Shown: piece after piece, positions 2,785 to 61,300 of the stretch
Layout of the letters: each line of letters begins with the position of its first letter
Position numbering within the stretch: the stretch's first letter is position 1
Source of the DNA: Akkermansia muciniphila
GTDB taxonomy: Bacteria > Verrucomicrobiota > Verrucomicrobiia > Limisphaerales > SXTU01
NCBI GenBank assembly: GCA_945874145.1
Contig: CAMCFN010000006.1
Location: 16,164-80,163, forward strand
DNA length: 64,000 nucleotides
Reading direction: 5' to 3'
The notes under the pieces: generated by a model
What the model was told of the DNA's origin: nothing
The model's database searches: none
What the model saw: the letters and a program-made list of their open reading frames with translations, nothing else
Made by a program: the position numbers and the translations under genes

Positions 2785-2875
2785 AGTGTTCAGTGTTCAG
2801 TCATTAGTGGCCCGCCGTCGCTCTGTGAGACTGAAAACTGAAAACTGAAAACTGAAAACTGAAAACTGAAAACTC
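2785..2875. repeat. heptamer-built hairpin element: arm AGTGTTCAGTGTTCAGTC (2785-2802), ~26-nt loop, (CTGAAAA)x6 (2831-2872)
   Basis: Six perfect tandem CTGAAAA units read directly. The left arm pairs with GACTGAAAACTGAAAACT at 16 of 18 positions. It fills the radC-stop to lpxA-start spacer. Confidence 0.8.
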
Positions 2876-6889: not shown

Positions 6890-7990
6890 ATGACCATCGG
6901 CGTGCCCAAGGAAATCAAAGCTCAGGAAAACCGCGTCGCCCTCCTGCCCTCGGCGGCCTACCAACTCCTCCGACATGGCCACAAGGTCATCGTCGAACGC
7001 GGGGCCGGAACCGGATCCGGCTACCCGGATGCCAACTACGAACAGGCCGGGGCAACCCTTGTAGCCGAGCACTCCGCCGTCTTCGCGGAGGCCGATTTGA
7101 TTGTGAAAGTGAAGGAGCCGCTTCCCGCCGAGTATCCACTCTTGAGGCCCGGCCAGTTGCTCTTCACCTATCTGCACCTCGCCGCGAACCGCGAGCTGAC
7201 CGACGCCTTGCTCAAGTCCGGCGCGACGTGCATCGCCTACGAGACCATCGAGGTCAACCGCCGCCTGCCATTGCTCGAACCCATGAGCGAAATCGCCGGG
7301 CGCATGAGCGTGCTCGTGGGCGGTTACTTCCTCGCCAAGCACTGCGGCGGCAACGGCGTGCTTCTCGGCGGCGTGCCCGGCGTCCTGCCGGGCAAAGTAG
7401 TCGTCCTGGGCGGCGGCGCGGCAGGCGTCAATGCCGCCCGCATGGCCCAAGGCCTCGGCGCAGACGTGACCATTCTTGAAGTGGACGTGGAGCGGATGCG
7501 CTTTCTCGACATCACCCTCCACACGGCCCACACGCTCTACTCGAACGAGGCGCACCTCATGGAACTCCTTCCCACCGTGGACCTCCTCATCGGCGCGGTG
7601 CTCGTCCCCGGCGCTAAGGCCCCCAAGCTCATCCGCCGCGAGATGCTCCGCCAGATGCGCCCCGGCAGCGTGCTCGTGGACATCGCGATTGACCAGGGCG
7701 GCTGCGCCGAGACTTCCCGTCCCACCACGCACCACGACCCCGTGTTCACTGAGGAAGGCGTCCTCCACTACTGTGTCGCGAACATGCCTGCCGCCTACGC
7801 CCGCACCGCCACGCAAGCCCTCACCAACGTCACCTATCGCTACATCGAGCAACTCGCCGACCTCGGCCTTGCCGACGCCTGCGTGCGACAGCCTGCGCTC
7901 CTCGGCGGCATCAATGTTCAGGCGGGCAAACTTACGTGCCGGGCAGTGGCGGAGGCGCACGAGCTGCCCTTTGCGCCCGCAGCCGTGTAG
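6890..7990 (+). CDS. ald: alanine dehydrogenase
   Basis: MTIGVPKEIKAQENRVALLP...VKVKEP...FTYLHLA...VVVLGGGAAGVNAARMAQGLGADVTILE...LVDIAIDQGGC. Start trimmed to the ATG at 6890. Confidence 0.93.
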   Translation: MTIGVPKEIKAQENRVALLPSAAYQLLRHGHKVIVERGAGTGSGYPDANYEQAGATLVAEHSAVFAEADLIVKVKEPLPAEYPLLRPGQLLFTYLHLAANRELTDALLKSGATCIAYETIEVNRRLPLLEPMSEIAGRMSVLVGGYFLAKHCGGNGVLLGGVPGVLPGKVVVLGGGAAGVNAARMAQGLGADVTILEVDVERMRFLDITLHTAHTLYSNEAHLMELLPTVDLLIGAVLVPGAKAPKLIRREMLRQMRPGSVLVDIAIDQGGCAETSRPTTHHDPVFTEEGVLHYCVANMPAAYARTATQALTNVTYRYIEQLADLGLADACVRQPALLGGINVQAGKLTCRAVAEAHELPFAPAAV

Positions 7991-7991
7991 C

Positions 7992-8088
7992 CAGTGAGTG
8001 TTCAGGAATCAGTAGTCAGTATTCAGTCCCGAAGAGTTTGCGAGCTTCGAGCGCTGCTTCCCAACTGAACACTGATTACTGAACACTG
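7992..8088. repeat. heptamer-built hairpin element (arms 7992-8027 and 8064-8088)
   Basis: CAGTGAGTGTTCAGGAATCAGTAGTCAGTATTCAGT ... ACTGAACACTGATTACTGAACACTG. The arms are imperfect reverse complements made of (T/A)CAGT-type ~7-nt units. It starts 2 nt after the ald stop. Confidence 0.75.
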
Positions 8089-8208
8089 CCCGAGCGCCTC
8101 AAACTTGAAACTTCCCTCCCGCCGCCCGTGTCCTACCTTCCTTAGCGCAGCCCCAATTTTGTTCGTAACGACCGGCTGCCGCAAGCGTCACCTCAGCACA
8201 TCAAACTT

Positions 8209-20838: not shown

Positions 20839-23800
20839 TCAATCCACATACAGAAACGCATTGCTCGTCAGCAGCACGCGGGCGAGGCCGGACCAGGCGA
20901 GTTCGGCGTCATTGGTCGGGGGCTTTTCGAGGGCGGTGAGCTTGGTGCGGTAGGCGGTGAGGAAGGCGAGGGCGTCACTGACTTCCGCGTTGCTCGGCAC
21001 GCGACCGTGGGCCAGGGCGAAGGCGAGGCGGATGCGCTGGGTGTCGTCGGCGGACTCGGCGAGCAGGCGGCGGGCGAAGGACTCGGCCTGTTGCTGCACG
21101 AAGGGCGAATTCATCAGGTAGAGCGTCTGCGTGGGCGTGGTGGTGGGCAGGCGCTGTGCGATGCTGAGGTTCGGGTCGGCGGCGTCGAAGAGCGCGAGGA
21201 AGGGATGGCGGCGATTGCGCTGCTGCATCAGGTAAAGGCTTCGGTGGTCGCTGTCGTAAACGGCGAAGAACGGATTGTGGATGGTGAAGCGCCAGGTCGC
21301 CATGTCGGGGAACGGATGCGGGCCGGGCACGGCGCGATTAAGCCGGCCGCTCACGGCGAGCATGGAGTCGCGGATGGACTCGGCGTCGAGCGGACGGCGC
21401 GCGTGCCGCCAGAGCCAGACATTGGCGGGGTCCTGCTTGAGATTCGCAGCGTGGTCGTCGCTCGCGAGCTGGTAAGTCTGCGAGCGCATGATGAGCCGGT
21501 GCAGCGCCTTCACAGACCAGCCGGACGCGATGAATTCGGACGTGAGCCAGTCGAGCAACTCCGGGTGCGTGGGCGGCTCGCCGCGCAGGCCGAAGTCGCT
21601 GGGCGTCGGCACGAGGCCCTGGCCGAAATGCCATTGCCAGACGCGGTTCACGAAGACGCGCGCGGTGAGCGGGTTGCTCGGGCGCGTGAGCCAGTTCGCG
21701 AGTTCGAGTCGGCCGCTGTTGGTCGAGCCGGCGGGGAGCTTGTCGCCGCCGAGCACTTCGAGGAAACGGCGCGGCGCTTCGTCGCCGAGTTTCTCCGGCT
21801 CGCCACGGAGCTGGATGCGCGCGTTGACGGGCTTGTCCTCGCTGACGCCATAGGCCACGGGATACAACGCTTTCGCCGCCTCGGCGTCGCGCAGTTTGGT
21901 CGCGGCGACGATGTCCGCATCAAGCTGCTTCAGCCGCTCGGCGAGGTCGGCGGGTGGGGCGGTGGGCACGTCGACGGGGCCGGTGCCCGGTTCGGCGAAG
22001 GGAGTTTCCTGCAAGCCGAGGTTGTCGAGGTCGCGCTCGGGAGCGGGGCCGCTGACGTGGCCGATGGCGTCGCAGATGAAGGTATCGGCCACGCCATCCC
22101 AGTTCGCGCCGAGCGGTTTGCCTGCGAACGTGGTGAGGTCGCCGGTCACGCCGACCGCGCCGGAGTAGGTCTTCTTCGCGGGGTCGAGCGTGAGGCGGAG
22201 GGTGTGCCAGGAGCCGGGCTGAAGCTGGCGGAGGACTTCCCACTTGGTGCCGTTGCGGAGCGCGATCTCCGTGGCGGTCACACTCACCTCGACCGCGAGC
22301 GACGCGATGACGCCGCGCCCGAGGTAGAAACGATACGCGCCGGACTTGTCCGTGGGAGCGACGGTGCGGAAATCCACGGTGAAGTGCATTTGCTTGCCGG
22401 GCGCGGCCTTGAGCGGGCGGGCGAAGACGTAGCGGACGCCGTTGTTGGCCTTGCCGGTGCCCACGCGCACGCCGCGCGTGCCCACGGGGTGAATGTGCGC
22501 GAAGGGGCTTTGGGCCTCGGCCAGCACTTTGTTCGGCCCTTCGGACAGCCAGGGCGCGGTGGGCGGCTGACCGATGGTTTGCAGCTCGAAGCCTAGGTCT
22601 GGTCCACCGGCGATGGACTTGTTGTCGAGCGCGACGCGGTCGGCTTTGAGTTTCGCGAGCGCGGCGTCGAGACGAGCGAGTTCGGCGGACTTCAGCTTGT
22701 CGAGGCGCGCGGCTTCCTCGCGCGAGACGAGCGGGGGAAAGTCGGACGGGCGTTTCTGCTCTTCGCCGCCGGGGAACGCCCACTTCGTGCTCTGGAAGAT
22801 GCCGTAGAGCGAGTAGTAATCCGCCGCGCTGACCGGGTCATACTTGTGGTCGTGGCAGCGCGCGCAGCCGAGCGAGAGGCCGAGGAGCGAGCGCCCCACG
22901 GAGTCAATCGCATCGGCGAAGTCGAGGTGCTGGTAGTCGGGCGAGGGCTTGTAGCCGTAGCGCTTGCCAACGGCGAGGAAGCCGGTGGCGGTGATGCGGC
23001 GGGCGTATTGGTCCGCCGGCCCTTGTGCGGCGAGAATGTCCCCGGCGATTTGATCACGGATGAACTCGTTGAACGGCTGGTCGGCGTTGAAGGCATTCAC
23101 CACCCAATCGCGATACTTCACGGCCTCGCGCACGGGGTAGTCCGCGCCATCGCCGGCGGTGTCGGCGTAGCGGGCGACGTCGAGCCAGTGGCGGCCCCAG
23201 CGTTCGCCGTAGGCTGGGCTGGCGAGGAGGCGGTCAATGGCATTGGCGATTGCCGATTGCCGATTGCCGATTGGGGAGTAGGCGCGCTCGAAAGCTTCGA
23301 TTTCCTCGGGCGGCGGCGGGAGGCCGGTGAGGTCGAAGGTCATGCGGCGGATGAGGGCGCGCGGGTCGGCGGGGGGATTGGGCGCAAGACCTTGCTGCTG
23401 GAGGCGAGTGAACACGAAGCGGTCGAGGGGTTGCTGGCTCCAGGCGTTGGGCTTGGGGGCGGGTGGCTGTGGGTGGGTGAGGGGCTGGAAGGCCCAGTGC
23501 TTCCGCACGGCGGCGGGGTCCACGCCGGCAGTGACGGCGGGGGTGCCTTCGCGCGGGTCAGGCGCGCCGAGCTTCACCCATTGTTCGAGCGCGGCGACTT
23601 CCTCGGAGCCGAGCGCGCGCTTGGGGGGCATCTGCAGGTCCTTGTCCTTCCGGCGCACGGCTTGGATGAGGCGGCTCTTGTCAGGGTCGCCGGGGACGAT
23701 GACGGGGCCGTGGTCGCCGCCTTTTTGCCAGCCGGCTTTCGTGTCGAGGCGGAGACCGCCTTCCTGTTTCTTTTCGCCGTGGCACTTCTGGCAGTGCTCG

Positions 23801-27890: not shown

Positions 27891-29339
27891 TCAACCCCGT
27901 AGAATCTCGTTCACCAGCCGCGCGTTCTGGCCGTCCACGAGGGACATCTCCGTGGCGTTGCGCTTGAAGACGAGCTTCTTGTAGTCGAGGCCGAAGAGGT
28001 GCAGCAGCGTGGCGTGGTAGTCGTAGTGGTTCACGATATCCTTCACCGCGTGGTGGCCGAACTCGTCGGTCTCGCCGTAGGTGATGCCATTCTTGAACCC
28101 GCCGCCCGCCACCCACATCGAGAAGCCGTAGGTGTTGTGGTCTCGGCCCACTCGGGCGGGACCAACATCATTCTGAATGACCGGCAGCCGCCCCATCTCG
28201 CCGCCCCAGTGGACGACCGTTGAGTCGAGCAGGCCGCGCGCCTTCAAGTCCGTGACCAAACCCGCCGAGCCTTTATCAATGTATTTGCACGCCGCCGGCA
28301 GGCCGGTGCGGATGCTGCCGTGATGGTCCCACGTCTGGTTGCCCGTGTAGAGCTGCACAAAGCGCACGCCACGCTCCACGAGCCGCCGTGCGATGAGGCA
28401 GCGCGTGCCGAACTCCGCCGTGGCCGGCACATCGATGCCGTAGAGCGCCTTCGTTGCCGCGCTCTCGCCGGTGATGTCCATGGCCTCCTTCGCGGCGGTC
28501 TGCATCTTCGCGGCCAGCTCGTAGCTGGCGATTCGCGCCTGCAAATCCGTCTCGCCCGGATGGTCGCGGAGATGGTCGCGGTTCAGCTTGTCGAGGAACG
28601 AAAGGTAATTCTCCTGCGCCGGGCCGCGCAGGTGCGTTGGTGGGTCGAGGTTCGGGATGCGCGGCTCTTTCGAGCGGACGGCCGTGCCTTGGAAGAGCGA
28701 CGGCAGCCAACCGTTCTCCCAATTCGCCACGCCCAGCACCGGCAAGCCGCGCGGGTCCGTGAGCGCCATGAACGCCGGCAGGTTGCTCGTCTCCGCGCCG
28801 AGAGCGTAAGTGAGCCAGCTCCCAAGCGTGGGGCGACCGCCGAGCACGCGGCCGTTTTGCAGGGCGTAGATGGACTGGCCGTGGTTGTTCACGCCCGTGT
28901 GCATCCCGCGCAGCAGACACACGTCGTCCACGATGCCCGCGAAGTGGGGCAGCAGCTCGCTGACATCCATGCCGCACTGGCCGTGCTTCTGGAATTTCCA
29001 CGGGCTGGCGAGGACCTTGGGGCTGGCCTGCGCGGCGTTGTCGAACTTGATCTCGCCGGGGAACTTCTGGCCGTCCAGCTTGTCGAGCGCAGGCTTGGGG
29101 TCGAACAAGTCCATGTGGCTCGGACCGCCCTGCATGAACATGGAAATCATCGCCTTCGCGCGCGGCTCGAAGTGCGGGCGCCGAGGCAGGAGGTCGAAGC
29201 TCTTCGGGTCGAGGTCGGGCTTGGGCGGGCTGGCGAGCAGGTTGTCCTGCTTCAGCAACCACGCGAGCGCGACCGAGCCGAGGCCAAAGCCGGATTGTGC
29301 CAAGAAGTGGCGTCGGGAATTGCAGGTGGTGCTGGTCAT
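27891..29339 (-). CDS. DUF1501 domain protein (sulfatase-fold, Tat signal)
   Basis: MTSTTCNSRRHFLAQSGFGLGSVALAWLL. GGPSHMDLFDPKP...WDHHG...GEMGRLP...GRDHN. Start trimmed to the ATG at 29337-29339, 6 nt downstream of the partner stop. Confidence 0.9.
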   Translation of the reverse strand: MTSTTCNSRRHFLAQSGFGLGSVALAWLLKQDNLLASPPKPDLDPKSFDLLPRRPHFEPRAKAMISMFMQGGPSHMDLFDPKPALDKLDGQKFPGEIKFDNAAQASPKVLASPWKFQKHGQCGMDVSELLPHFAGIVDDVCLLRGMHTGVNNHGQSIYALQNGRVLGGRPTLGSWLTYALGAETSNLPAFMALTDPRGLPVLGVANWENGWLPSLFQGTAVRSKEPRIPNLDPPTHLRGPAQENYLSFLDKLNRDHLRDHPGETDLQARIASYELAAKMQTAAKEAMDITGESAATKALYGIDVPATAEFGTRCLIARRLVERGVRFVQLYTGNQTWDHHGSIRTGLPAACKYIDKGSAGLVTDLKARGLLDSTVVHWGGEMGRLPVIQNDVGPARVGRDHNTYGFSMWVAGGGFKNGITYGETDEFGHHAVKDIVNHYDYHATLLHLFGLDYKKLVFKRNATEMSLVDGQNARLVNEILRG

Positions 29340-29345
29340 GGTCAA

Positions 29346-32120
29346 TTACTCGACGTAAAGGAACCGGTTCGCAGTCAACAAGGCCTGACAAAGTCCCGTG
29401 AGCGCGTGTTCCTCCGCATTCGTCGGCGGGGGTTCCTTGCCCTTGGCCACCTTGGCTTCTTTCGGGGCGTTCGCAGTGAAGTGGGCGCGTTGCTTGCTGA
29501 GGAAACCGAGGGCGTCGGACATCTCCGTGCTGTTCGGACGTCGGCTGAAGGCGAGCTGCCAAGCGCGCGAAACCTTGGATTCGTCGGTCGAGTCGCCGGC
29601 TTCCTTTGCCACGCGCTCAGCGAAGAACTTGGCCTGTGCGAGCGCGAACTCGCCGTTCATCAGCGCGAGCGACTGCGGGGCGACGGTCGAGGCGTTGCGC
29701 AGCTCGCAGTTTGGTTCCATGCGCGGCGCGTCGAACGTCTCCATCAGGCCGAGCGGCTTGCTGCGGCGCATTTGCACGTAAAGGCTGCGGCGGAATTCCT
29801 CGCCGTTCAGCCCCACAAACTTCCCGCTGGGCCGGCCTGCCGTGTCGTCGGTGTTCACGCCCACGACGACTTGGCCGGTTTCGTCGGTCATGATGGGCAC
29901 CGGCGCGCCGCCGGGCTTTGGGTTAAGTCTGCCGCTTACGAAGAGCTGCGCGTCGCGAAGCTGCTCGGCGTCAAGCCGGCGGATGGGGTGGCGCCAGAGG
30001 AGCTTGTTGTCCGGGTCCTTGGAATTCGAGATGCGGAATTCGGCGTTCGAGAGCTGCGAGGCCTGTCTATACGCCGCGCTGGTCATGATGACCTTGTGCA
30101 ACTTCTTCAAGCTCCACCCCTGTGCGACGAACTCGCTCGCCAGCCAGTCGAGCAGCTCCGGGTGCGTCGGGCGTTCGCCCAGCGTGCCGAAGTCCGAGGG
30201 CGACGCCACGATGCCGCGGCCGAAGTGGTGCATCCAGATGCGGTTCACGAGCACGCGCGACGTGAGCGGGTGCTGGCCGTCGGTGAGCGCGCGCGCGTAG
30301 GCGAGGCGGCGTCCGCTCGTCGGCAGTGCCGCATCCTTCTCCGGCAAATCCACCGGCCGCAGCGCCGCGAGGATGGTCAAGTCACCGGGCTTGAGCTGCT
30401 GCTTGGGCTGGTCGGGGTCGCCGCGATGGAAGAGAAACGTCGGCGCAGGGCCGTCCTTCGCCGCCGTCTCGTTGAAGACAGGGATGAACTCCTCCGCTGG
30501 TTTCTTCTCGCGAATCTTCGCCGCCTCGTCCGTCTGCTTCTTCAGTTCGTCGGCCTTCTTCTGCTCGTAAAGATACAGCGAGCCGGGGCTGAGCTGCATC
30601 ACGGTCGGATGCTCCTTGAGCAGTTTCACCTGCGCGGGCGTGCGCTTGGCAACGACGGTCTTGTAGGCTTCGCGGAGCGGGGTGCGCAATTCCTCGGGCC
30701 GCTTCAACAACTCTTTCTCCAGCACCTCGTCGATGAACTCGTTCTGTTTCTTGAGGCGCGCGTCCTCAATGATCTTCGCCTCTTTCTCCACTTCGGCGGC
30801 CTTCGCGCGGGCTTCGTCTGACATGAGGGAGACGAGCCGGGCATTGGGCGTGCGCCAGGTGCGCAGGTCGAAGCCCGGCTCGAACACCGCACGCATTCGG
30901 TAGTAATCCGCCTGCGGAATCGGGTCGTGCTTGTGATTGTGGCACTGCGCGCAGCCGACCGTCACGCCGAGCAGCGAACTGGACACGACTTTGATGGTGT
31001 CCGCCACCACCGCGTTGCGCGCGACCTTCTGCTCGACGCCTGCGTTCGCCGTGCCGTCCGGGGCCATGCGGAGGAAGCCGGTGGCCGTGAGCTTGTCCAC
31101 GTCGGCGGGCGGAAGGTTCTTGTGCGGCGGCTTGACCAGTTCGTCGCCGGCGATCTGCTCAACGATGAACTCCCTGAACGGCTTGTCCGCGTTGAGCGAG
31201 CGGATGACGTAGTCGCGATACTTCCACGCCCACTTGCGCTCGGTGTCGGTATCCGTGTAGCCGTCCGAGTCCGCGTAGCCAGCGATGTCGAGCCAGTGCC
31301 GCCCCCAACGCTCGCCGTAATGTGGCGACGCGAGAAGGCGGTCGAGCAGCTTCTCGTATGCATCGGGCGAAGTGTCCTTCTCGAAGGCCTCGACCTCCGC
31401 CGGCGACGGCGGCAAGCCCAGGAGGTCAAAGTTCGCGCGGCGGATGAGCGTGGCGCGGTCGGCAGGCGGGGAGAAGCTGAGCTTGGCGGCGGCCAGTTTT
31501 TGGCCAATGAACGCGTCAATGGGGTGCGGCTTGGAACCAGTTTTCAGTGGCCAGTTTTCAGTGTTCAGTTGGGAGCCGCTGCGTTCCTTACCCGACTGAT
31601 TACTGAACACTGAAGACTGAATACTTGGAACTTCCGGCCGCTTCACTGGCTGAAACGCCCAATGCGCGCGCTCCTCCGGGGTAAACTCGTCCGCCGCGCC
31701 GGGCTTGGCTGGCTCCGCCCGCGCGACCTTAGCACCGCCCGCAATCCATTGGCGGAGCAGCTCGATCTTCTCCGGCGGCAGCTTCTTGCCCTGACCTTTC
31801 GGCATCTCGCCATCGCGGACCATGGTGAACAGCAGACTCTTCTCCGCTTTGCCGGGGACGATGGCCGCGCCCTGTTCGCCGCCTTTGGCAATGAGATGCC
31901 GCAGCCGCACGTCGAGGCCGCCCTTGGTCTTCCCCTCCTCGCCATGGCAGTGGAAGCAGTTCGCCTTGAGGATGGGCCGGATGTCCTTCTCGAACGTCAG
32001 CGGGCCGGTCGCGGCGGTCTTCGCGGCGGGGGCCGCCATGAGTGAACTCGCAGCCACAACGGCTACGACGGAAAGCACGCCCCGGAGACAATCACGCGAT
32101 ATTTTTGCGACGCTGAACAC
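29346..32120 (-). CDS. PSCyt1 / DUF1549 / PSCyt2 / DUF1553 multidomain protein
   Basis: CFHCHGEEGKTKGGLDVRL...MPK. IDAFIGQKLAAAKLSFSPPADRATLIRRANFDLLGLPP. CAQCHNHKHDP. RVLVNRIWMHHFGRGIVASPSDFGTLGERPTHPELLDWL. GTG start at 32118-32120. Confidence 0.9.
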   Translation of the reverse strand: MFSVAKISRDCLRGVLSVVAVVAASSLMAAPAAKTAATGPLTFEKDIRPILKANCFHCHGEEGKTKGGLDVRLRHLIAKGGEQGAAIVPGKAEKSLLFTMVRDGEMPKGQGKKLPPEKIELLRQWIAGGAKVARAEPAKPGAADEFTPEERAHWAFQPVKRPEVPSIQSSVFSNQSGKERSGSQLNTENWPLKTGSKPHPIDAFIGQKLAAAKLSFSPPADRATLIRRANFDLLGLPPSPAEVEAFEKDTSPDAYEKLLDRLLASPHYGERWGRHWLDIAGYADSDGYTDTDTERKWAWKYRDYVIRSLNADKPFREFIVEQIAGDELVKPPHKNLPPADVDKLTATGFLRMAPDGTANAGVEQKVARNAVVADTIKVVSSSLLGVTVGCAQCHNHKHDPIPQADYYRMRAVFEPGFDLRTWRTPNARLVSLMSDEARAKAAEVEKEAKIIEDARLKKQNEFIDEVLEKELLKRPEELRTPLREAYKTVVAKRTPAQVKLLKEHPTVMQLSPGSLYLYEQKKADELKKQTDEAAKIREKKPAEEFIPVFNETAAKDGPAPTFLFHRGDPDQPKQQLKPGDLTILAALRPVDLPEKDAALPTSGRRLAYARALTDGQHPLTSRVLVNRIWMHHFGRGIVASPSDFGTLGERPTHPELLDWLASEFVAQGWSLKKLHKVIMTSAAYRQASQLSNAEFRISNSKDPDNKLLWRHPIRRLDAEQLRDAQLFVSGRLNPKPGGAPVPIMTDETGQVVVGVNTDDTAGRPSGKFVGLNGEEFRRSLYVQMRRSKPLGLMETFDAPRMEPNCELRNASTVAPQSLALMNGEFALAQAKFFAERVAKEAGDSTDESKVSRAWQLAFSRRPNSTEMSDALGFLSKQRAHFTANAPKEAKVAKGKEPPPTNAEEHALTGLCQALLTANRFLYVE
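31537..31628. repeat. heptamer-built hairpin element inserted in frame in the 29346-32120 CDS
   Basis: CCAGTTTTCAGTGGCCAGTTTTCAGTGTTCAGT (31537-31569) ... GACTGATTACTGAACACTGAAGACTGAATACTTGG (31594-31628). Translated as ...SIQSSVFSNQSGKERSGSQLNTENWPLKTGS... Confidence 0.8.
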
Positions 32121-58367: not shown

Positions 58368-61300
58368 GTGACCAGTCGTTTCCTTCAACCTGTTGCCCCC
58401 TTCATCGCGTTGCTGGCGTTGGCCTTTCCCGCTGCTGCTGCACCCGCGCCGGACTTTCAACGCGAGGTTCGCCCCATCCTGTCCCGCCAGTGCTTCGCCT
58501 GCCACGGGCCGGACGAACACGCGCGCAAGGCCAATCTCCGCCTCGACCTCCGCGACGCCGCGCTCGCCCCCGCCAAGTCCGGCCAGCGCGCCGTCGTCCC
58601 TGGCAAGCCTGAGCAAAGCGAACTCGTCCGCCGCATCACGAGCACGGACCACAACAAGCTCATGCCGCCGCCGGAGACGAAGAAGCAGCTCACCGCTGCC
58701 GAGGCGGACACGCTCCGCCGCTGGGTCACCGGTGGCGCGGATTACCAGCCGCACTGGGCCTTCATCAAGCCGCAGCAGGCCGCGCTGCCGAAGGTGAAGC
58801 AAACGACTTGGCCGCAGAACGCCATTGACCTCTTCATCCTCGCGCGGCTGGAGCAGGAGGGCTTGAAGCCATCCGCGCCTGCCGATGACTACTCGTTGGT
58901 CCGCCGCCTTTACCTCGACTTGATTGGCCTTCCACCGACACCCGAAGAGGCCGACGCGTTCGTGAAGTCCGTTCAAATCGGCAATCGCCAATCGGCAATC
59001 GCCAATCTCGCCGACAAACTGCTCGCCTCCCCGCACTACGGCGAGCGTTGGGCGCGCAAGTGGCTCGACCTCGCCCGCTACGCCGACACCAACGGCTACG
59101 AGAAGGACCGCCCGCGCAACATCTGGCCCTGGCGCGACTGGGTCATCCGCGCGTTGAACGAGGATTTGCCCTTCGACCAGTTCACCCTCCAGCAGCTCGC
59201 TGGCGACCTGCTGCCAAACAACTCAAAACCCAAAACTCCCAACTCAGAACTCAGCCACCTCGTGGCGACCGGCTTCCATCGCAACACCATGCTCAACGAG
59301 GAAGGCGGCATTGACCCGCTGGAGTTCCGCTTCTACGCGATGGTGGACCGCGTCGCCACCACCGGCACGACCTGGCTCGGCCTCACCGTCGGCTGCGCGC
59401 AATGCCACACGCACAAGTTCGACCCCATCCCGCACACCGACTACTACGCGATGATGGCCTTCCTCAACAACGCCGACGAACCCGACCTCGACCTGCCGGA
59501 CGCCGCGTTGGATGAACAGCATCGCAAGAACCTAGAGCGCGCCGCCACCCTGCTGGCTGAGTTACCGAAGAAGTTTCCCGCGGACACAAACTCCACCCCG
59601 CCAACGCCCGGAGCCGAACATCTGGAGCGGAAGTTCGCTGCGTGGCGCAACGCCGAACGCGCCCGCGTCGTGCCGTGGACGACGCTGCGCCCGCATGAGG
59701 CCAAGTCCACCCTCCCGCTCCTCACCGTGCAGCCCGACGCCTCTGTCTTCGCCAGCGGCGACATCAGCAAGAACGACACTTACACGCTCAAGTTCCGCAA
59801 CGTCCCCGCCGGCACCACTGCGTTGCGCCTCGAAGCCTTGCCTGATGACCGCCTGCCCGCCCACGGCCCCGGCATGGCCTACTACGAAGGGCCAAAGGGC
59901 GACTTCTTCCTCGGCGAGTTCCGCGTCAAGTCCGGCGGCCAGCCGCTGAAGCTTGCGCGCGCATACCAAACCTACGCGAAGCTCTGGCTCGGCGGCGACC
60001 GTGCTTCCGCTGCATTGGCCATTGATGGCAATCCCGAGACGGGCTGGGGCGTCTTCGAGCGCTTCGGCGAACGGCACGTCGCGGTCTTCCACTTCGCCCA
60101 GCCACTCGCCGCTGCTGGCGAACTCGAAGTGCAGCTTCAGTTCGGCCGCCACTACGCCTGTTCGCTGGGCCGGTTCCGCATCTCGGCCACCGGCGATGCA
60201 CAGGCCACCGCGAGCGAACTGCCCGAAGCAGCCGACGCCTTGCTCCGCGTGCCGGAGGCGCAACTCACCGCCGCCCAACTCGCCCAATTGCGCGAGCAAT
60301 TCCTCCTTGTCGCACCTGAGCTGAAAGCCGCCCGCGCTGAGATTGAGAAGTTGCGCAAGCCGCCCGCGCATCAAACGACGCTCGTGCTGCGCGAGCGCCC
60401 GCCGGAGAACCCGCGCCCCACGCACCGGCATCATCGCGGCGAGTTTCTGTCGCCGAAGGAAGCCGTCGCGCCTGCCGTGCTCGGCGTGTTGAACCCGCTG
60501 CCACCTGGCGCACCGACGAACCGACTCGGCTTCGCGCAGTGGCTCGTCTCGCCGGAAAATCCGCTCACCGCCCGCGTGACCGTGAACCGCCAGTGGGCCG
60601 CGTTCTTCGGGAGCGGCATCGTGCGGACGACCGAGGACTTCGGCCTGCAAGGCGACGCGCCCACGCACCCGGAGTTGCTCGACTGGCTGGCGGTGGAGTT
60701 TACGAAGCAGGGCTGGTCACTGAAGCAGTTGCACAAGCTCATCGTGACCAGCGCCTCTTACCAACAGAGCAGCAAGTTTTCAGTGTTCGGTGCTCAGTCT
60801 TCAGTTGCGACCAGCGCACCGAAGCCCACTGAAAACTGGAAACAGAATACTGAACACTCCTCCCGCCTCGACCCGGATAACCGGCTGTTGAGTCGTTTCC
60901 CCCGCTCCCGCCTCGATGCCGAGCTCATCCGCGATTCCGTCCTGCGCGCCAGCGGCCAGCTCTCGCCGAAGATTGGCGGGCCGAGCGTCTATCCGCCGCA
61001 GCCCGCGAGCGTGACCTCGGAAGGCGTCTATGGCGGAAAGTCATGGAACGAAAGCCAGGGCGAAGACCGCTACCGTCGCGGCCTCTACACGTTCGCCAAG
61101 CGCTCCGCCCCCTACGCGATGTTCAACACCTTCGACGGCCCCAGCGGCGAAGCCTGCGTCGCCCGCCGCGACAGCTCGAACACGCCGCTCCAGGCCCTCA
61201 CGCTCCTCAACGACACCGTCATCCTCGAAGCCGCCCAAGCCCTCGGTCGCCAGCTCGCTGCGGAGCCCGGCACCATCGAGAGCCGCGTGGAAAACCTCTT

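What the first reader, a model, noticed from the sequence alone, without database searches (positions are those of the whole stretch)
31537..31628. Heptamer-hairpin element inserted in frame inside a PSCyt/DUF1553 coding sequence
Seen: a full two-arm element (CCAGTTTTCAGTGGCCAGTTTTCAGTGTTCAGT … GACTGATTACTGAACACTGAAGACTGAATACTTGG) lies within the 29346-32120 CDS without breaking the frame. It adds about 30 residues (…SIQSSVFSNQSGKERSGSQLNTENWPLKTGS…) in the linker between the cytochrome-c-like module and DUF1549. Established precedent: Rickettsia palindromic elements are known to insert in frame into protein genes. Inference: an analogous phenomenon occurs here in a PVC bacterium, with the elements tolerated in surface loops or linkers.
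Basis: partly seen in the sequence, partly recalled or inferred. Interest (0 to 1): 0.6.

Follow-up and report, generated by a model that had tools for sequence, protein, structure and literature searches.

The report
In-frame heptamer-armed hairpin repeat
A working gene of a freshwater Verrucomicrobia bacterium carries, in frame, a small hairpin-shaped repeat built from 7-base units. The repeat is read through as a floppy 31-residue linker, and it belongs to a genus-wide family that also sits in frame inside essential genes, much like the palindromic elements of Rickettsia.

Summary
Window 31537-31628 is a two-arm hairpin, (NNTCAGT)x4-5, a 25-nt loop, then (ACTGANN)x4-5. It lies in frame in the intact 924-aa PSCyt1/DUF1549/DUF1553 gene (29346-32120, minus strand).

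Syntenic orthologues show three states at this exact site: this hairpin, a second hairpin with TTAGT/ACTAA arms, or a plain 4-5-unit heptamer array. Our allele is 23 residues longer than the array state. AlphaFold2 gives pLDDT below 50 for residues 174-195, with confident flanks.

The genome holds 48 such hairpins. Their loops are unrelated and there are no target-site duplications. Thirty-two are non-coding, and 28 of those abut a gene's 3' end. Sixteen are in frame in genes: 11 in DUF1553 paralogues, the rest including DnaE and MnmG. UvrA and PheT carry looser copies.

In related species the same spots (this linker, an MnmG loop, the ald 3' spacer) carry hairpins built from different heptamers. 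In sister genomes, arms of our type flank small PF05635 ("23S rRNA intervening-sequence protein") genes.

Best reading: a translated, cargo-less member of an RPE-like, IVS-like selfish hairpin family, tolerated in a disordered linker. How it spreads is unknown. I rate it a new variant of a known kind, of moderate interest.

The parts
31537..31569 (.). Arm 1 of the hairpin. On the + strand it reads CCAGT TTTCAGT GGCCAGT TTTCAGT GTTCAGT. On the coding (minus) strand it is the distal arm ACTGAAC ACTGAAA ACTGGCC ACTGAAA ACTGG, which encodes LNTENWPLKTG.
   Evidence: TGG (Trp) stands where the canonical ACTGA unit would place an in-frame TGA. 4 of 5 a-type alleles have TGG there and one has GGG.
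31570..31594 (.). The 25-nt G+C-rich loop, which encodes part of SGKERSGSQ. It is homologous only to the loops of the orthologous a-type alleles, not to loops of other copies in this genome.
   Evidence: Loop identity among the 5 a-type alleles is 0.71. Loop-to-loop scores among the 48 genome copies equal the shuffled null.
31595..31628 (.). Arm 2 of the hairpin. On the + strand it reads ACTGATT ACTGAAC ACTGAAG ACTGAAT ACTTGG. On the coding strand it is the proximal arm CCAAGT ATTCAGT CTTCAGT GTTCAGT AATCAGT, which encodes PSIQSSVFSNQS.
29346..32120 (-). Host gene: a 924-aa PSCyt1 / PSCyt2 (DUF1549) / PSD1 (DUF1553) protein. It is intact, followed directly by a DUF1501 gene (27891-29345) and preceded by a divergent Lactamase_B gene.
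   Evidence: Synteny is shown. The codon model separates this sense frame from the 833-aa antisense shadow ORF.
31797..31958 (-). PSCyt1 (planctomycete cytochrome c) domain, residues 55-108, containing the CxxCH motif. It lies upstream of the insert.
   Evidence: C55, C58 and H59 are invariant in 49 homologues.
30879..31523 (-). PSCyt2/DUF1549 domain, residues 200-414. It starts at the conserved (N/H)PIDAF motif a few codons after the insert.
2785..2875 (.). Another copy of the same family in the window. It has a (CTGAAAA)x6 arm and is non-coding, abutting a gene's 3' end.
7992..8090 (.). Another copy of the same family, placed 2 nt after the ald stop codon. Orthologous copies with a homologous loop exist in G012 and G016. 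Other species carry hairpins with other units at the same spot.
60775..60858 (+). Another in-frame copy, in a second DUF1553 paralogue (encoding SKFSVFGAQSSVATSAPKPTENWKQNTEHSS). It lies between 'YxQSS' and 'DPDNRLL' of the PSD1 domain, which I call site C.

Best explanation
The segment is a cargo-less (miniature) member of a genus-wide family of palindromic repeats. Their arms are tandem heptamers, (NNTCAGT)n facing (ACTGANN)n, and each copy has its own unique loop. This copy lies in frame in the inter-domain linker just before the DUF1549 domain.

The copy is transcribed and translated with the gene as a disordered stretch of about 31 residues, a net gain of 23 aa. It is tolerated rather than needed. 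Orthologues do without it, and its stem is the weakest among the alleles of its type.

It behaves as selfish or neutral DNA of the kind known from Rickettsia palindromic elements (RPE). Selection has kept only variants that preserve the frame and lack stops, for example TGA changed to TGG in the arm.

Shown here:
- the anatomy of the element and that the frame is kept;
- presence and absence among syntenic orthologues;
- membership of a dispersed family;
- in-frame copies in essential genes;
- the disordered-linker prediction;
- that arms of the same type flank PF05635 four-helix-bundle genes in sister genomes.

Inferred, not shown:
- that the short hairpins are non-autonomous relatives of those PF05635 cassettes, which have the design of 23S rRNA intervening sequences (IVS);
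- that the family spreads by a mechanism that leaves no target-site duplication and prefers spots that already hold hairpins or heptamer arrays, usually right after stop codons.

The spreading machinery is unknown.
For: Anatomy and fold.

Host gene intact.

Three allelic states at one site:
- Syntenic orthologues carry an a-type hairpin, a b-type hairpin or a plain array at the same position.
- The a-type alleles from G000, G006, G008, G011 and contig L003 are all 159 nt between anchors and share a homologous loop. This points to one old origin with the frame kept open ever since.

Family census:
- 48 hairpins: 16 in coding sequence and 32 outside it.
- Non-coding copies are closed in all six frames in 18 of 32 cases. 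Only about 8% of frames are open.
- The family is depleted in coding sequence (16 of 48 against about 85% coding; P = 8e-16).
- 11 of the 16 coding copies lie in DUF1553 paralogues, which make up 3.3% of the genome (P = 2e-13).

Hosts outside the DUF1553 family, confirmed by Pfam: MnmG, DnaE, UvrA, PheT, LarC, peptidase U32, a GT1 glycosyltransferase, an AcrB-family pump and a DUF7133 protein.

Structure: AlphaFold2 gives pLDDT below 50 for residues 174-195, against 75-87 in the flanking blocks.

Folding by allele: a-type alleles fold at -37 to -50 kcal/mol, with G000 the weakest; b-type alleles fold at -20 to -32; plain arrays are unstructured.

Link to cassettes:
- PF05635 genes are present at 2-16 copies in 19 of 20 genus genomes.
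- 20 of 52 inspected copies lie between heptamer arrays, and in 15 of them both arrays have the same unit in inverted orientation.
- Some have CAGT-type arms (L092, L097, L110, L111, L120) and some have b-type TTAGT arms (L121, L124).

Presence/absence of cassettes:
- The livK-livH spacer is filled in relatives and is an empty 33-nt spacer in the own genome.
- At the orthologous DUF1553-DUF1501 junction, a GxxExxY cassette is present in L001 and L004, while the window, L003 and L007 are empty.
Against: - Copies share only their arms. Loops are no more alike than shuffled sequence. The family therefore lacks the whole-length consensus expected of recently transposed MITEs or RPEs.
- There is no target-site duplication signal. 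Flanking direct repeats are 2-3 nt, as in the null. The 6-8-nt TGGAAC repeat at this copy is the only exception among 48.
- The own genome holds no PF05635 gene and no Y1 transposase. The genome is only 82% complete.
- The a-type loop shows no significant similarity to the inner flanks of CAGT-armed PF05635 cassettes (z at most 1.8). Descent by internal deletion is therefore not shown.
- Plain arrays at this site look home-grown, because their last unit is the host's own AAT CCC ATC GAC (NPID) codons. An in-situ route to the hairpin cannot be excluded.
- No expression or peptide evidence was available.
Confidence: 0.68

Rival explanations
1. The hairpin arose in place with no mobile element involved. 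A heptamer array native to this linker grew by replication slippage, since 7-nt units are the slippage-favoured size in many bacteria. It then became a hairpin by strand-switch (quasi-palindrome) copying, and the arms have since been homogenised in concert.
For: - Period-7 tandem repeats are strongly over-represented in the genome: 46 perfect arrays of at least 3 copies, against 1 for period 8; 89 lag-7 arrays against 2 for lag 8.
- The excess of heptanucleotide repeats and the slippage idea are published (Mrazek 2007, as cited in PMC4679880 and PMC4692102).
- Plain arrays at the same site in orthologues end in the host's own NPID codons. Distant orthologues have 7-aa periodic peptides there.
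- Arms are homogenised in G011, where the arm is (TTTCAGT)x4. Unit number differs between species (6 against 4 units at the ald copy).
- There is no target-site duplication and no shared loop.
Against: - Forty-eight loci in this genome, and many more across 20 genus genomes, use the same NNTCAGT unit and often the same GAAGT...ACTTC ends. Independent local slippage would give unrelated units.
- The same two arm types (TCAGT and TTAGT) flank PF05635 genes at unrelated loci in sister genomes.
- Cassettes with such arms show clean presence/absence between close relatives.
- The a-type and b-type alleles each have their own conserved loop and are scattered on the gene tree. This fits exchange or re-insertion better than gradual change.
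Confidence: 0.2
2. The hairpin is a functional cis-element of this gene. Candidates are an RNase III or other processing site that uncouples the cytochrome module from the rest, a translational pause site, or a frame-switching contingency repeat that turns the protein on and off.
For: - The arms are better conserved among a-type alleles (0.86-0.87) than the loop (0.71) or the flanks (0.71-0.80).
- The stems are long enough to be RNase III substrates. Intervening sequences with similar stems are cut by RNase III (PMC4990558).
- A 7-nt unit inside a coding sequence could in principle shift the frame.
Against: - Sister species, including the closest relative G007 and contig L004, carry a different and weaker hairpin or an unstructured array at the same site in an otherwise 91-95% identical gene.
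- All 16 genus alleles recovered, and all contig alleles, are in frame. Length differences are multiples of 3.
- No Rfam family matches. The best hits score 13-19 bits (E 0.46-0.63), far below their gathering scores.
- The same element type sits in unrelated genes and after stop codons.
- Arm conservation can equally come from concerted evolution within a repeat family.
Confidence: 0.08
3. The segment is an ancestral, protein-level conserved linker, or the gene is a decaying pseudogene, so the repeat is incidental.
For: Several orthologues share the same roughly 43-residue linker.
Against: - Orthologues at about 60% identity, and many at 82-92%, have a 20-residue linker instead.
- The shared peptide is explained by a shared DNA hairpin.
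- The ORF is complete, with Pfam scores of 266-280 bits for DUF1549 and DUF1553 and an invariant CxxCH motif.
- Codon log-likelihood is positive on both flanks of the element (15.6 and 44.7).
Confidence: 0.02

Closest known systems
Rickettsia palindromic elements (RPE; Ogata et al. 2000 and 2002, as summarised in PMC10969869)
   Same: - Both are short palindromic repeats dispersed in the genome.
- A large share of copies is inserted in frame in unrelated, working protein genes, including housekeeping ones.
- Copies are read through as extra peptide segments in places the fold tolerates.
- No transposase is associated.
   Different: - RPE families are conserved over their whole ~150-bp length and encode a conserved peptide. 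Here only the heptamer-built arms are shared and every loop is unique.
- The host is a free-living, G+C-rich Verrucomicrobiota bacterium rather than an obligate intracellular alphaproteobacterium.
- Insertion sites recur across paralogues and species.
- Relatives with the same arms carry a small gene.
S23p-type intervening sequences of 23S rRNA (e.g. Coxiella burnetii IVS, PMC4990558; Pfam PF05635 / TIGR02436 'four helix bundle protein')
   Same: - Both have the design of a long terminal stem enclosing a loop that may hold a PF05635 gene.
- In sister genomes, arms of exactly this element's type (TCAGT heptamers) enclose PF05635 genes.
- Both are regarded as selfish elements with sporadic distribution.
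   Different: - This copy has a 25-nt loop and no gene.
- It sits in an mRNA coding region, not in helix 25 or 45 of 23S rRNA.
- Excision by RNase III would destroy the message and was not tested.
- The tandem-heptamer make-up of the arms is not part of the IVS description I read.
Heptanucleotide simple-sequence repeats: cyanobacterial STRR (from my own knowledge), TAACTGA repeats of Beggiatoaceae, Cyanobacteria and Bacteroidetes (PMC4679880), and GGGAATC repeats of Xanthomonas (PMC4692102)
   Same: - All use 7-nt tandem units, typically about 4 per array, with a genome-wide period-7 excess.
- The ACTGA/TCAGT core is shared with TAACTGA. As there, one orientation carries stops in all three frames and the other is translatable (LSVISYQ-like peptides there, compared with SVFSVQS here).
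- The same sites are occupied in related species, with variation in length and sequence.
- Some Xanthomonas arrays occur as inverted pairs.
   Different: - Those families are mostly direct arrays in intergenic DNA. Here the dominant form is a two-arm hairpin.
- One third of copies here are in frame in genes, mostly internal rather than at protein ends.
- No cargo genes are reported for those families in the papers read.
REP/BIME elements with RAYT (Y1) transposases, and classical MITEs
   Same: - All are small hairpin-forming dispersed repeats.
- Non-coding copies sit right after stop codons, as REPs do (28 of 32 abut a gene's 3' end).
- Like REPs, they make no target-site duplication.
   Different: - There is no GTAG-type REP head and no RAYT in the own genome. 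Y1 genes of the genus are not flanked by heptamer arms.
- Unlike MITEs, they have no target-site duplication and no transposase-bearing parent.

Membership tests
Rickettsia palindromic elements (RPE-like in-frame palindromes) | Dispersed family of short palindromic repeats in one genome | tested here: met
   There are 48 hairpins of 52-119 nt in the 4.58-Mb assembly. Copies occur in all 20 genus genomes.
Rickettsia palindromic elements (RPE-like in-frame palindromes) | Many copies lie in frame inside functional protein genes, with the host ORF kept open | tested here: met
   16 of 48 copies are in coding sequence with positive codon scores on both flanks. Hosts include MnmG and DnaE, with looser copies in UvrA and PheT. 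This copy is kept open in at least 5 assemblies.
Rickettsia palindromic elements (RPE-like in-frame palindromes) | Copies of a family are alike over their whole length and encode a conserved peptide | tested here: not met
   Loops are unrelated: the loop-to-loop score distribution equals the shuffled null. Only the arm-encoded peptides recur (SVFSVQS... and ...LNTEHW).
Rickettsia palindromic elements (RPE-like in-frame palindromes) | Sequence homology to the Rickettsia RPE families | not tested
   No RPE sequences were fetched. The unit structure and G+C context make homology unlikely, but that is an inference.
IVS-type hairpin cassette (PF05635 / S23p) | Terminal inverted repeats that form a long stem | tested here: met
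   The arms are 35 nt and 77% complementary, and the fold is -47.9 kcal/mol with z = -4.6.
IVS-type hairpin cassette (PF05635 / S23p) | A PF05635 ORF in the loop | tested here: not met
   The loop is 25 nt and the own genome has no PF05635 gene. The feature is met only in sister genomes, where the same arm type encloses PF05635 genes (L092, L097, L110, L111, L120).
IVS-type hairpin cassette (PF05635 / S23p) | Located in 23S rRNA helix 25 or 45 | tested here: not met
   The element lies in a protein-coding gene.
IVS-type hairpin cassette (PF05635 / S23p) | Removed from the transcript by RNase III | not testable with these tools
Heptanucleotide SSR / STRR-type repeats | Tandem 7-nt units, with a period-7 excess in the genome | tested here: met
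   Perfect arrays of at least 3 copies: 46 for period 7 against 1 for period 8. Lag-7 arrays number 89 against 2 for lag 8.
Heptanucleotide SSR / STRR-type repeats | Unit number or sequence varies between related genomes at the same locus | tested here: met
   The ald copy has 4 units in G000 against 6 in G012. The site A arm in G011 is homogenised to (TTTCAGT)x4. Plain arrays use AATCGCC, AATTCGC or GGTCAGC in different species.
Heptanucleotide SSR / STRR-type repeats | The named unit sequences (STRR CCCCAGT, TTGGTCA, CAACAGT; TAACTGA; GGGAATC) | tested here: not met
   The units here are NNTCAGT / ACTGANN. Only the CAGT / ACTGA core is shared (PMC4679880).
REP / RAYT (REPtron) | An associated Y1 (RAYT) transposase gene flanked by the repeats | tested here: not met
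   PF01797 is absent from the own genome. It is present in 18 of 20 genus genomes, but the 6 inspected copies have no heptamer arms nearby.
Classical MITE | Target-site duplication flanking the terminal inverted repeats | tested here: not met
   Flanking direct repeats at the 48 copies are 2-3 nt long, which equals the random expectation.
Phase-variable contingency repeat | Close strains differ by unit numbers that shift the reading frame | tested here: inconclusive
   All alleles recovered are in frame.

The most novel reading that the evidence does not exclude
Heptamer-armed hairpins may be the miniature form of a widespread, undescribed class of mobile cassette that lacks any transposase. 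The full-size members would carry PF05635 (Avd/S23p-like four-helix-bundle) or GxxExxY genes, and the classical 23S rRNA intervening sequences would be one special case. These elements would enter, or replace one another at, spots that already form hairpins or hold heptamer arrays. That would explain why one loop of MnmG, one linker of a DUF1553 protein and one 3' spacer each carry differently built hairpins in sister species, and why the elements end up translated inside essential genes.
Probability: 0.35. Interest if true: 0.8.

Novelty: new variant of a known kind. Interest (0 to 1): 0.6.

Why it matters
- It extends "selfish DNA inside protein genes", so far a textbook oddity of Rickettsia, to a free-living, G+C-rich Verrucomicrobiota lineage. 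Here it reaches DnaE, UvrA, PheT and MnmG.
- It ties three literatures that have been separate: in-frame palindromic elements, the unexplained excess of heptanucleotide repeats in bacteria, and rRNA intervening sequences with their orphan PF05635 proteins.
- The genus offers natural filled and empty sites at several loci: livK-livH, the DUF1553-DUF1501 junction, the MnmG loop and this linker. These make the spreading mechanism experimentally approachable.
- For annotation, such segments inflate protein length, create spurious low-complexity "linkers" and break assemblies.

Tried and rejected
- Rfam scan of 31300-31900 with permissive thresholds: only chance hits of 13-19 bits (E 0.46-0.63), far below their gathering scores.
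- RAYT/REP link: there is no PF01797 gene in the own genome, and six genus copies lack heptamer arms. Rejected.
- Target-site duplication: the 8-nt CTTGGAAC direct repeat at this copy looked promising. Across the 48 copies, however, flanking repeats are no longer than chance. I treat it as coincidence or as part of degenerate end units.
- Shared element body: all-against-all comparison of loops gave no similarity above shuffles.
- Descent of the a-type loop from the inner flanks of CAGT-armed PF05635 cassettes: not significant.
- Covariation between a-type and b-type alleles as proof of a selected structure: RNAalifold found only a 10-bp shared helix with 2 compensated pairs. This was later explained better by two distinct arm families, both seen around PF05635 genes.
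- Orthologue of the ald-downstream copy in the sister genome G007: the locus is rearranged or paralogous there, so it was uninformative.
- Strict pattern search in 301 genomes of the phylum: 3 genomes hit (the own genome plus two others with one locus each). The CAGT hairpin form is therefore largely confined to this genus.


Full report
**1. The observation**

Window 31537-31628 reads CCAGTTTTCAGTGGCCAGTTTTCAGTGTTCAGT, then a 25-nt loop, then ACTGATTACTGAACACTGAAGACTGAATACTTGG.
- The repeat finder gives 35-nt arms that are 77% complementary.
- As RNA the segment folds at -47.9 kcal/mol, with z = -4.6 against 200 dinucleotide shuffles.
- The arm word, allowing up to 2 mismatches, occurs 20 times in the window against 0.6 expected. 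The hits cluster at four loci: about 2789-2870, 8015-8090, 31543-31621 and 60779-60854 (sequences).

The element lies in the minus-strand ORF 29346-32120 (924 aa).
- Pfam finds PSCyt1 at residues 55-108, PSCyt2/DUF1549 at 200-414 and PSD1/DUF1553 at 604-873.
- The element covers residues 165-195 and has no stop.
- A codon-usage model trained on 49 paralogues scores this frame positive on both sides of the element (15.6 and 44.7). It rejects the 833-aa antisense ORF (-325).

**2. Orthologues**

The protein has many close relatives in Limisphaerales/Pedosphaera-type Verrucomicrobiota. Seven contigs were fetched. Five of them (L001-L004 and L007) share the upstream Lactamase_B and glycosyltransferase neighbours, so these are true orthologues.

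Between the anchors HWAFQ and (I/V)DAF(I/L) there are three states:
- **State a:** our hairpin, 159 nt. Found in G000, G006, G008, G011 and contig L003, and at the protein level in P0004, P0005, P0007, P0012, P0017, P0020 and P0022.
- **State b:** a second hairpin of 135-165 nt whose arms are built from TTAGT/ACTAA units. Found in G007, G010, G014, G015 and contigs L002 and L004.
- **State s:** a plain array of 4-5 heptamers, always 90 nt. Examples are (AATCGCC)4 in L001, (AATTCGC)4 in L006 and G009, and (GGTCAGC)4 in L007 and G017.

One allele (P0023 / G013, 84 nt) keeps two left-arm units and looks like a deletion remnant. Orthologues at about 60% identity have the short form, with peptides of 7-residue period such as VQSPKSKVQN.

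The segment is therefore not an ancestral linker. The a state adds 23 residues over the s state.

The five a-type alleles share a homologous loop (consensus C[AG]GGCAACGGACGCAGCGGCTCC), so they have one origin.
- Mean pairwise identity is 0.86-0.87 in the arms, 0.71 in the loop and 0.71-0.80 in the flanks.
- In 4 of the 5 alleles the arm unit that would put TGA in frame reads TGG; in the fifth it reads GGG.

On a tree built without the linker, the states are scattered, needing at least 12 changes on 37 leaves.
- Our a-type allele is sister (SH-aLRT 97) to the b-type allele of P0002, and next (SH-aLRT 99) to the s-type allele of P0006.
- Because a and b each keep their own loop, this looks like exchange or re-occupation of one site rather than repeated fresh invention.

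**3. Structure**

AlphaFold2 was run on a 49-sequence alignment (mean pLDDT 68.5, pTM 0.60).
- It gives pLDDT below 50 for residues 174-195.
- Blocks 151-170 score 75-79, and block 201-210 scores 87.
- This fits a disordered inter-domain linker.

**4. The family in this genome**

The window lies in a 4.58-Mb, 157-contig assembly with 63.6% G+C.

Period-7 repeats are far in excess:
- 46 perfect arrays of at least 3 copies, against 1 for period 8;
- 89 lag-7 arrays, against 2 for lag 8.

A strict census finds 48 CAGT-type hairpins.
- Their loops are no more alike than shuffled loops.
- Their flanks carry no target-site duplication.

Thirty-two copies are non-coding.
- 28 of them abut the 3' end of a gene, usually within 0-10 nt of the stop.
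- 18 are closed in all six frames, and only about 8% of frames are open.

Sixteen copies are in frame in genes.
- This is a strong depletion against a roughly 85% coding genome (P = 8e-16).
- Eleven of the 16 lie in PSCyt/DUF1549/DUF1553 paralogues, which make up 3.3% of the genome (P = 2e-13).
- Within those paralogues they occupy two recurrent sites: before NPIDAF (ours and C114:1315), and in PSD1 between YxQSS and DPxNRLL.
- The other hosts, confirmed by Pfam, are DnaE, MnmG, peptidase U32, a GT1 glycosyltransferase and a DUF7133/HEAT protein.
- Looser copies sit in UvrA, PheT, LarC and an AcrB-family pump.

This is the habit described for Rickettsia palindromic elements (PMC10969869).

**5. 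Same spot, different hairpin**

In MnmG, the loop between LFH(V/M)EQ and YPPGSIL differs between species of the genus:
- a CAGT hairpin in G000, G007, G008 and G014;
- hairpins built from AGGTTCA/CTGAAAC in G011 and G002;
- GAGTTTC/CGAAACT in G015;
- AACGCGG/TTCCGCG in G004;
- AATCGCA-type units in G012;
- GGGAATA-type arms that bracket the host's own palindrome TTGTTCCAyrTGGAACAA in five genomes;
- no repeat in G016, G003 and other families.

The 3' spacer of ald shows the same pattern.

The strict CAGT hairpin pattern is found in 3 of 301 genomes sampled across the phylum (the own genome and two others with one locus each). Matches to the hairpin occur in all 20 genomes of the genus.

**6. 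Link to gene-bearing cassettes**

Earlier notes of this scan suggested that such hairpins are gene-less forms of elements carrying a PF05635 gene. I tested this here.
- The own genome has no PF05635 gene.
- 19 of 20 genus genomes have 2-16 copies.
- Of 52 loci read, 20 have heptamer arrays on both sides of the ORF, and 15 of those have the same unit in inverted orientation. Another 12 have an array on one side.

Several cassettes have exactly our arm type:
- (TTTCAGT)n...(ACTGAAA)n between the metK stop and the ahcY start, in G005 and G002;
- GGGAGTATTCAGTGAACAGTGTTCAGTATTCAGT ... GCTGAATACTGAAAACTGAACACTGAACACTTCCCC between the stop of a gene I read from its C-terminal sequence as DUF1553-type (not scanned) and the DUF1501 start, in G007, G016 and G006.

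Others have the b-type arms, AGTGATTAGTAATTAG...CTAATTACTAATCACT, in G005 and G008. NCBIfam names the cargo "four helix bundle protein" (TIGR02436).

A PF05635 cassette with GTTGAGA arms fills the livK-livH spacer in many genus genomes. In the own genome that spacer is an empty 33 nt.

At the orthologous locus of our own gene, contigs L001 and L004 (the closest relative) carry a GxxExxY gene (TIGR04256).
- It lies between inverted tandem 10-mers, inserted between the DUF1553 stop and the DUF1501 start.
- In the window, L003 and L007 the two genes are adjacent.

The design of a long terminal stem with a small ORF in the loop is that of the 23S rRNA intervening sequence of Coxiella. That element is treated as selfish and is cut out of the RNA by RNase III (PMC4990558).

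The a-type loop shows no significant similarity to the inner flanks of the CAGT cassettes. The link therefore rests on shared arms and shared siting, not on proven descent.

**7. What it most likely is**

The segment is a translated, cargo-less member of this hairpin family, tolerated in a disordered linker.

Function for the gene is unlikely.
- The closest relatives carry a weaker b-type hairpin or an unstructured array in an otherwise 91-95% identical gene.
- Our allele has the weakest stem of the a type.
- No Rfam family matches.

The main rival is home-grown origin by slippage and strand switching.
- It fits the plain arrays, whose last unit is the host's NPID codons.
- It also fits the published view that heptanucleotide repeats arise by polymerase slippage (PMC4679880 and PMC4692102).
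- It does not explain why dozens of unrelated loci, and PF05635 cassettes in other genomes, use the same units and ends.

A REP/RAYT mechanism is not supported, and neither is a classical MITE mechanism.

**8. Limits**

- No transcript, read-level or peptide evidence was available.
- The assembly is 82% complete, so the absence of PF05635 and Y1 genes is provisional.
- The census uses my own detector and a codon model rather than curated gene calls.
- The gene tree comes from a quick search, with several unresolved forks.

Noticed in passing
L001:1501-4170, L006:1501-4134, L007:1501-4173 (orthologues); window 31537-31628 is the matching site: Orthologues without the hairpin carry perfect 4-unit heptamer arrays with different units at the same site: AATCGCC, AATTCGC and GGTCAGC. 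All are exactly 90 nt between anchors. The last unit merges into the conserved NPID codons.
   Followed up: yes
window 23239-23279 and 58976-59009; also G000 C2:42793, C4:34391, C11:75593, C36:24603, C93:6234: AATCGGC/AATCGCC arrays encoding IGNRQSAIAN sit in frame inside the DUF1549 domain of at least 7 paralogues. They lie between 'EEVEAFxxx' and 'LLASPxYGERW', where our gene has DTSPDAYEKLL.
   Followed up: partly
L012-L030 (MnmG loci of 19 genomes); own copy at G000 C117:5110-5179: One MnmG loop carries hairpins built from at least six different heptamer units in species of one genus, and is empty in others. In five genomes the arms bracket the host's own 16-18-nt palindrome that encodes LFHVEQ.
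   Followed up: partly
L073-L124 (PF05635 loci of the genus); own genome C28 about 7560-7650 (empty livK-livH spacer): PF05635 'four helix bundle / 23S rRNA IVS protein' genes occur at 2-16 copies in 19 of 20 genus genomes and not at all in the own assembly. About 40% lie between inverted heptamer arms, typically right after a stop codon (livK-livH, metK-ahcY, DUF1553-DUF1501).
   Followed up: partly
L001:4170-4672 and L004:4170-4672; window 29339-29352 is the empty junction: In the closest relatives a GxxExxY (PDDEXK_3, TIGR04256) gene is inserted between the DUF1553 stop and the DUF1501 start. It is flanked by inverted tandem 10-mers, (CGCGAAAnnn)x3 ... (nnTTTCGCG)x3. In L002 the same junction holds a PIN_3 gene plus a small ORF, and I saw no obvious arms there.
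   Followed up: partly
window 8100-8120: The motif CAAACTTGAAACTTCCCTCCC, just downstream of the ald hairpin, is conserved in most genus genomes even where the hairpin itself is replaced. It may be a promoter or operator of the next gene.
   Followed up: no
G004:C15:5154-5498 (within L035): A Y1 (IS200/RAYT-like) transposase gene lies about 490 nt upstream of the G004 orthologue of our gene. Y1 genes are common in the genus (up to 14 per genome) but absent from the own assembly.
   Followed up: no
window 30021-30053: The same gene encodes LSNAEFRISNS at site C of its PSD1 domain. This is the spot where the paralogue at 60775-60858 carries a full hairpin. The peptide looks like a short GAATTYN heptamer remnant. 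I saw it only in the translation.
   Followed up: no
window 28320-30821 (+): An 833-aa open frame runs antisense to the DUF1501 and DUF1553 genes. The codon model scores it -325, so it is a G+C-rich shadow ORF and not a gene.
   Followed up: yes
G000 C8:22705-22840 (UvrA) and C109:605-780 (AcrB-family): In-frame hairpins with mixed TCAGT/TTAGT arms and long loops (VISNQS...LFTNHS and VISNQSSV...ALITNHSSV). The strict census missed these, so the in-coding count of 16 is a lower bound.
   Followed up: partly
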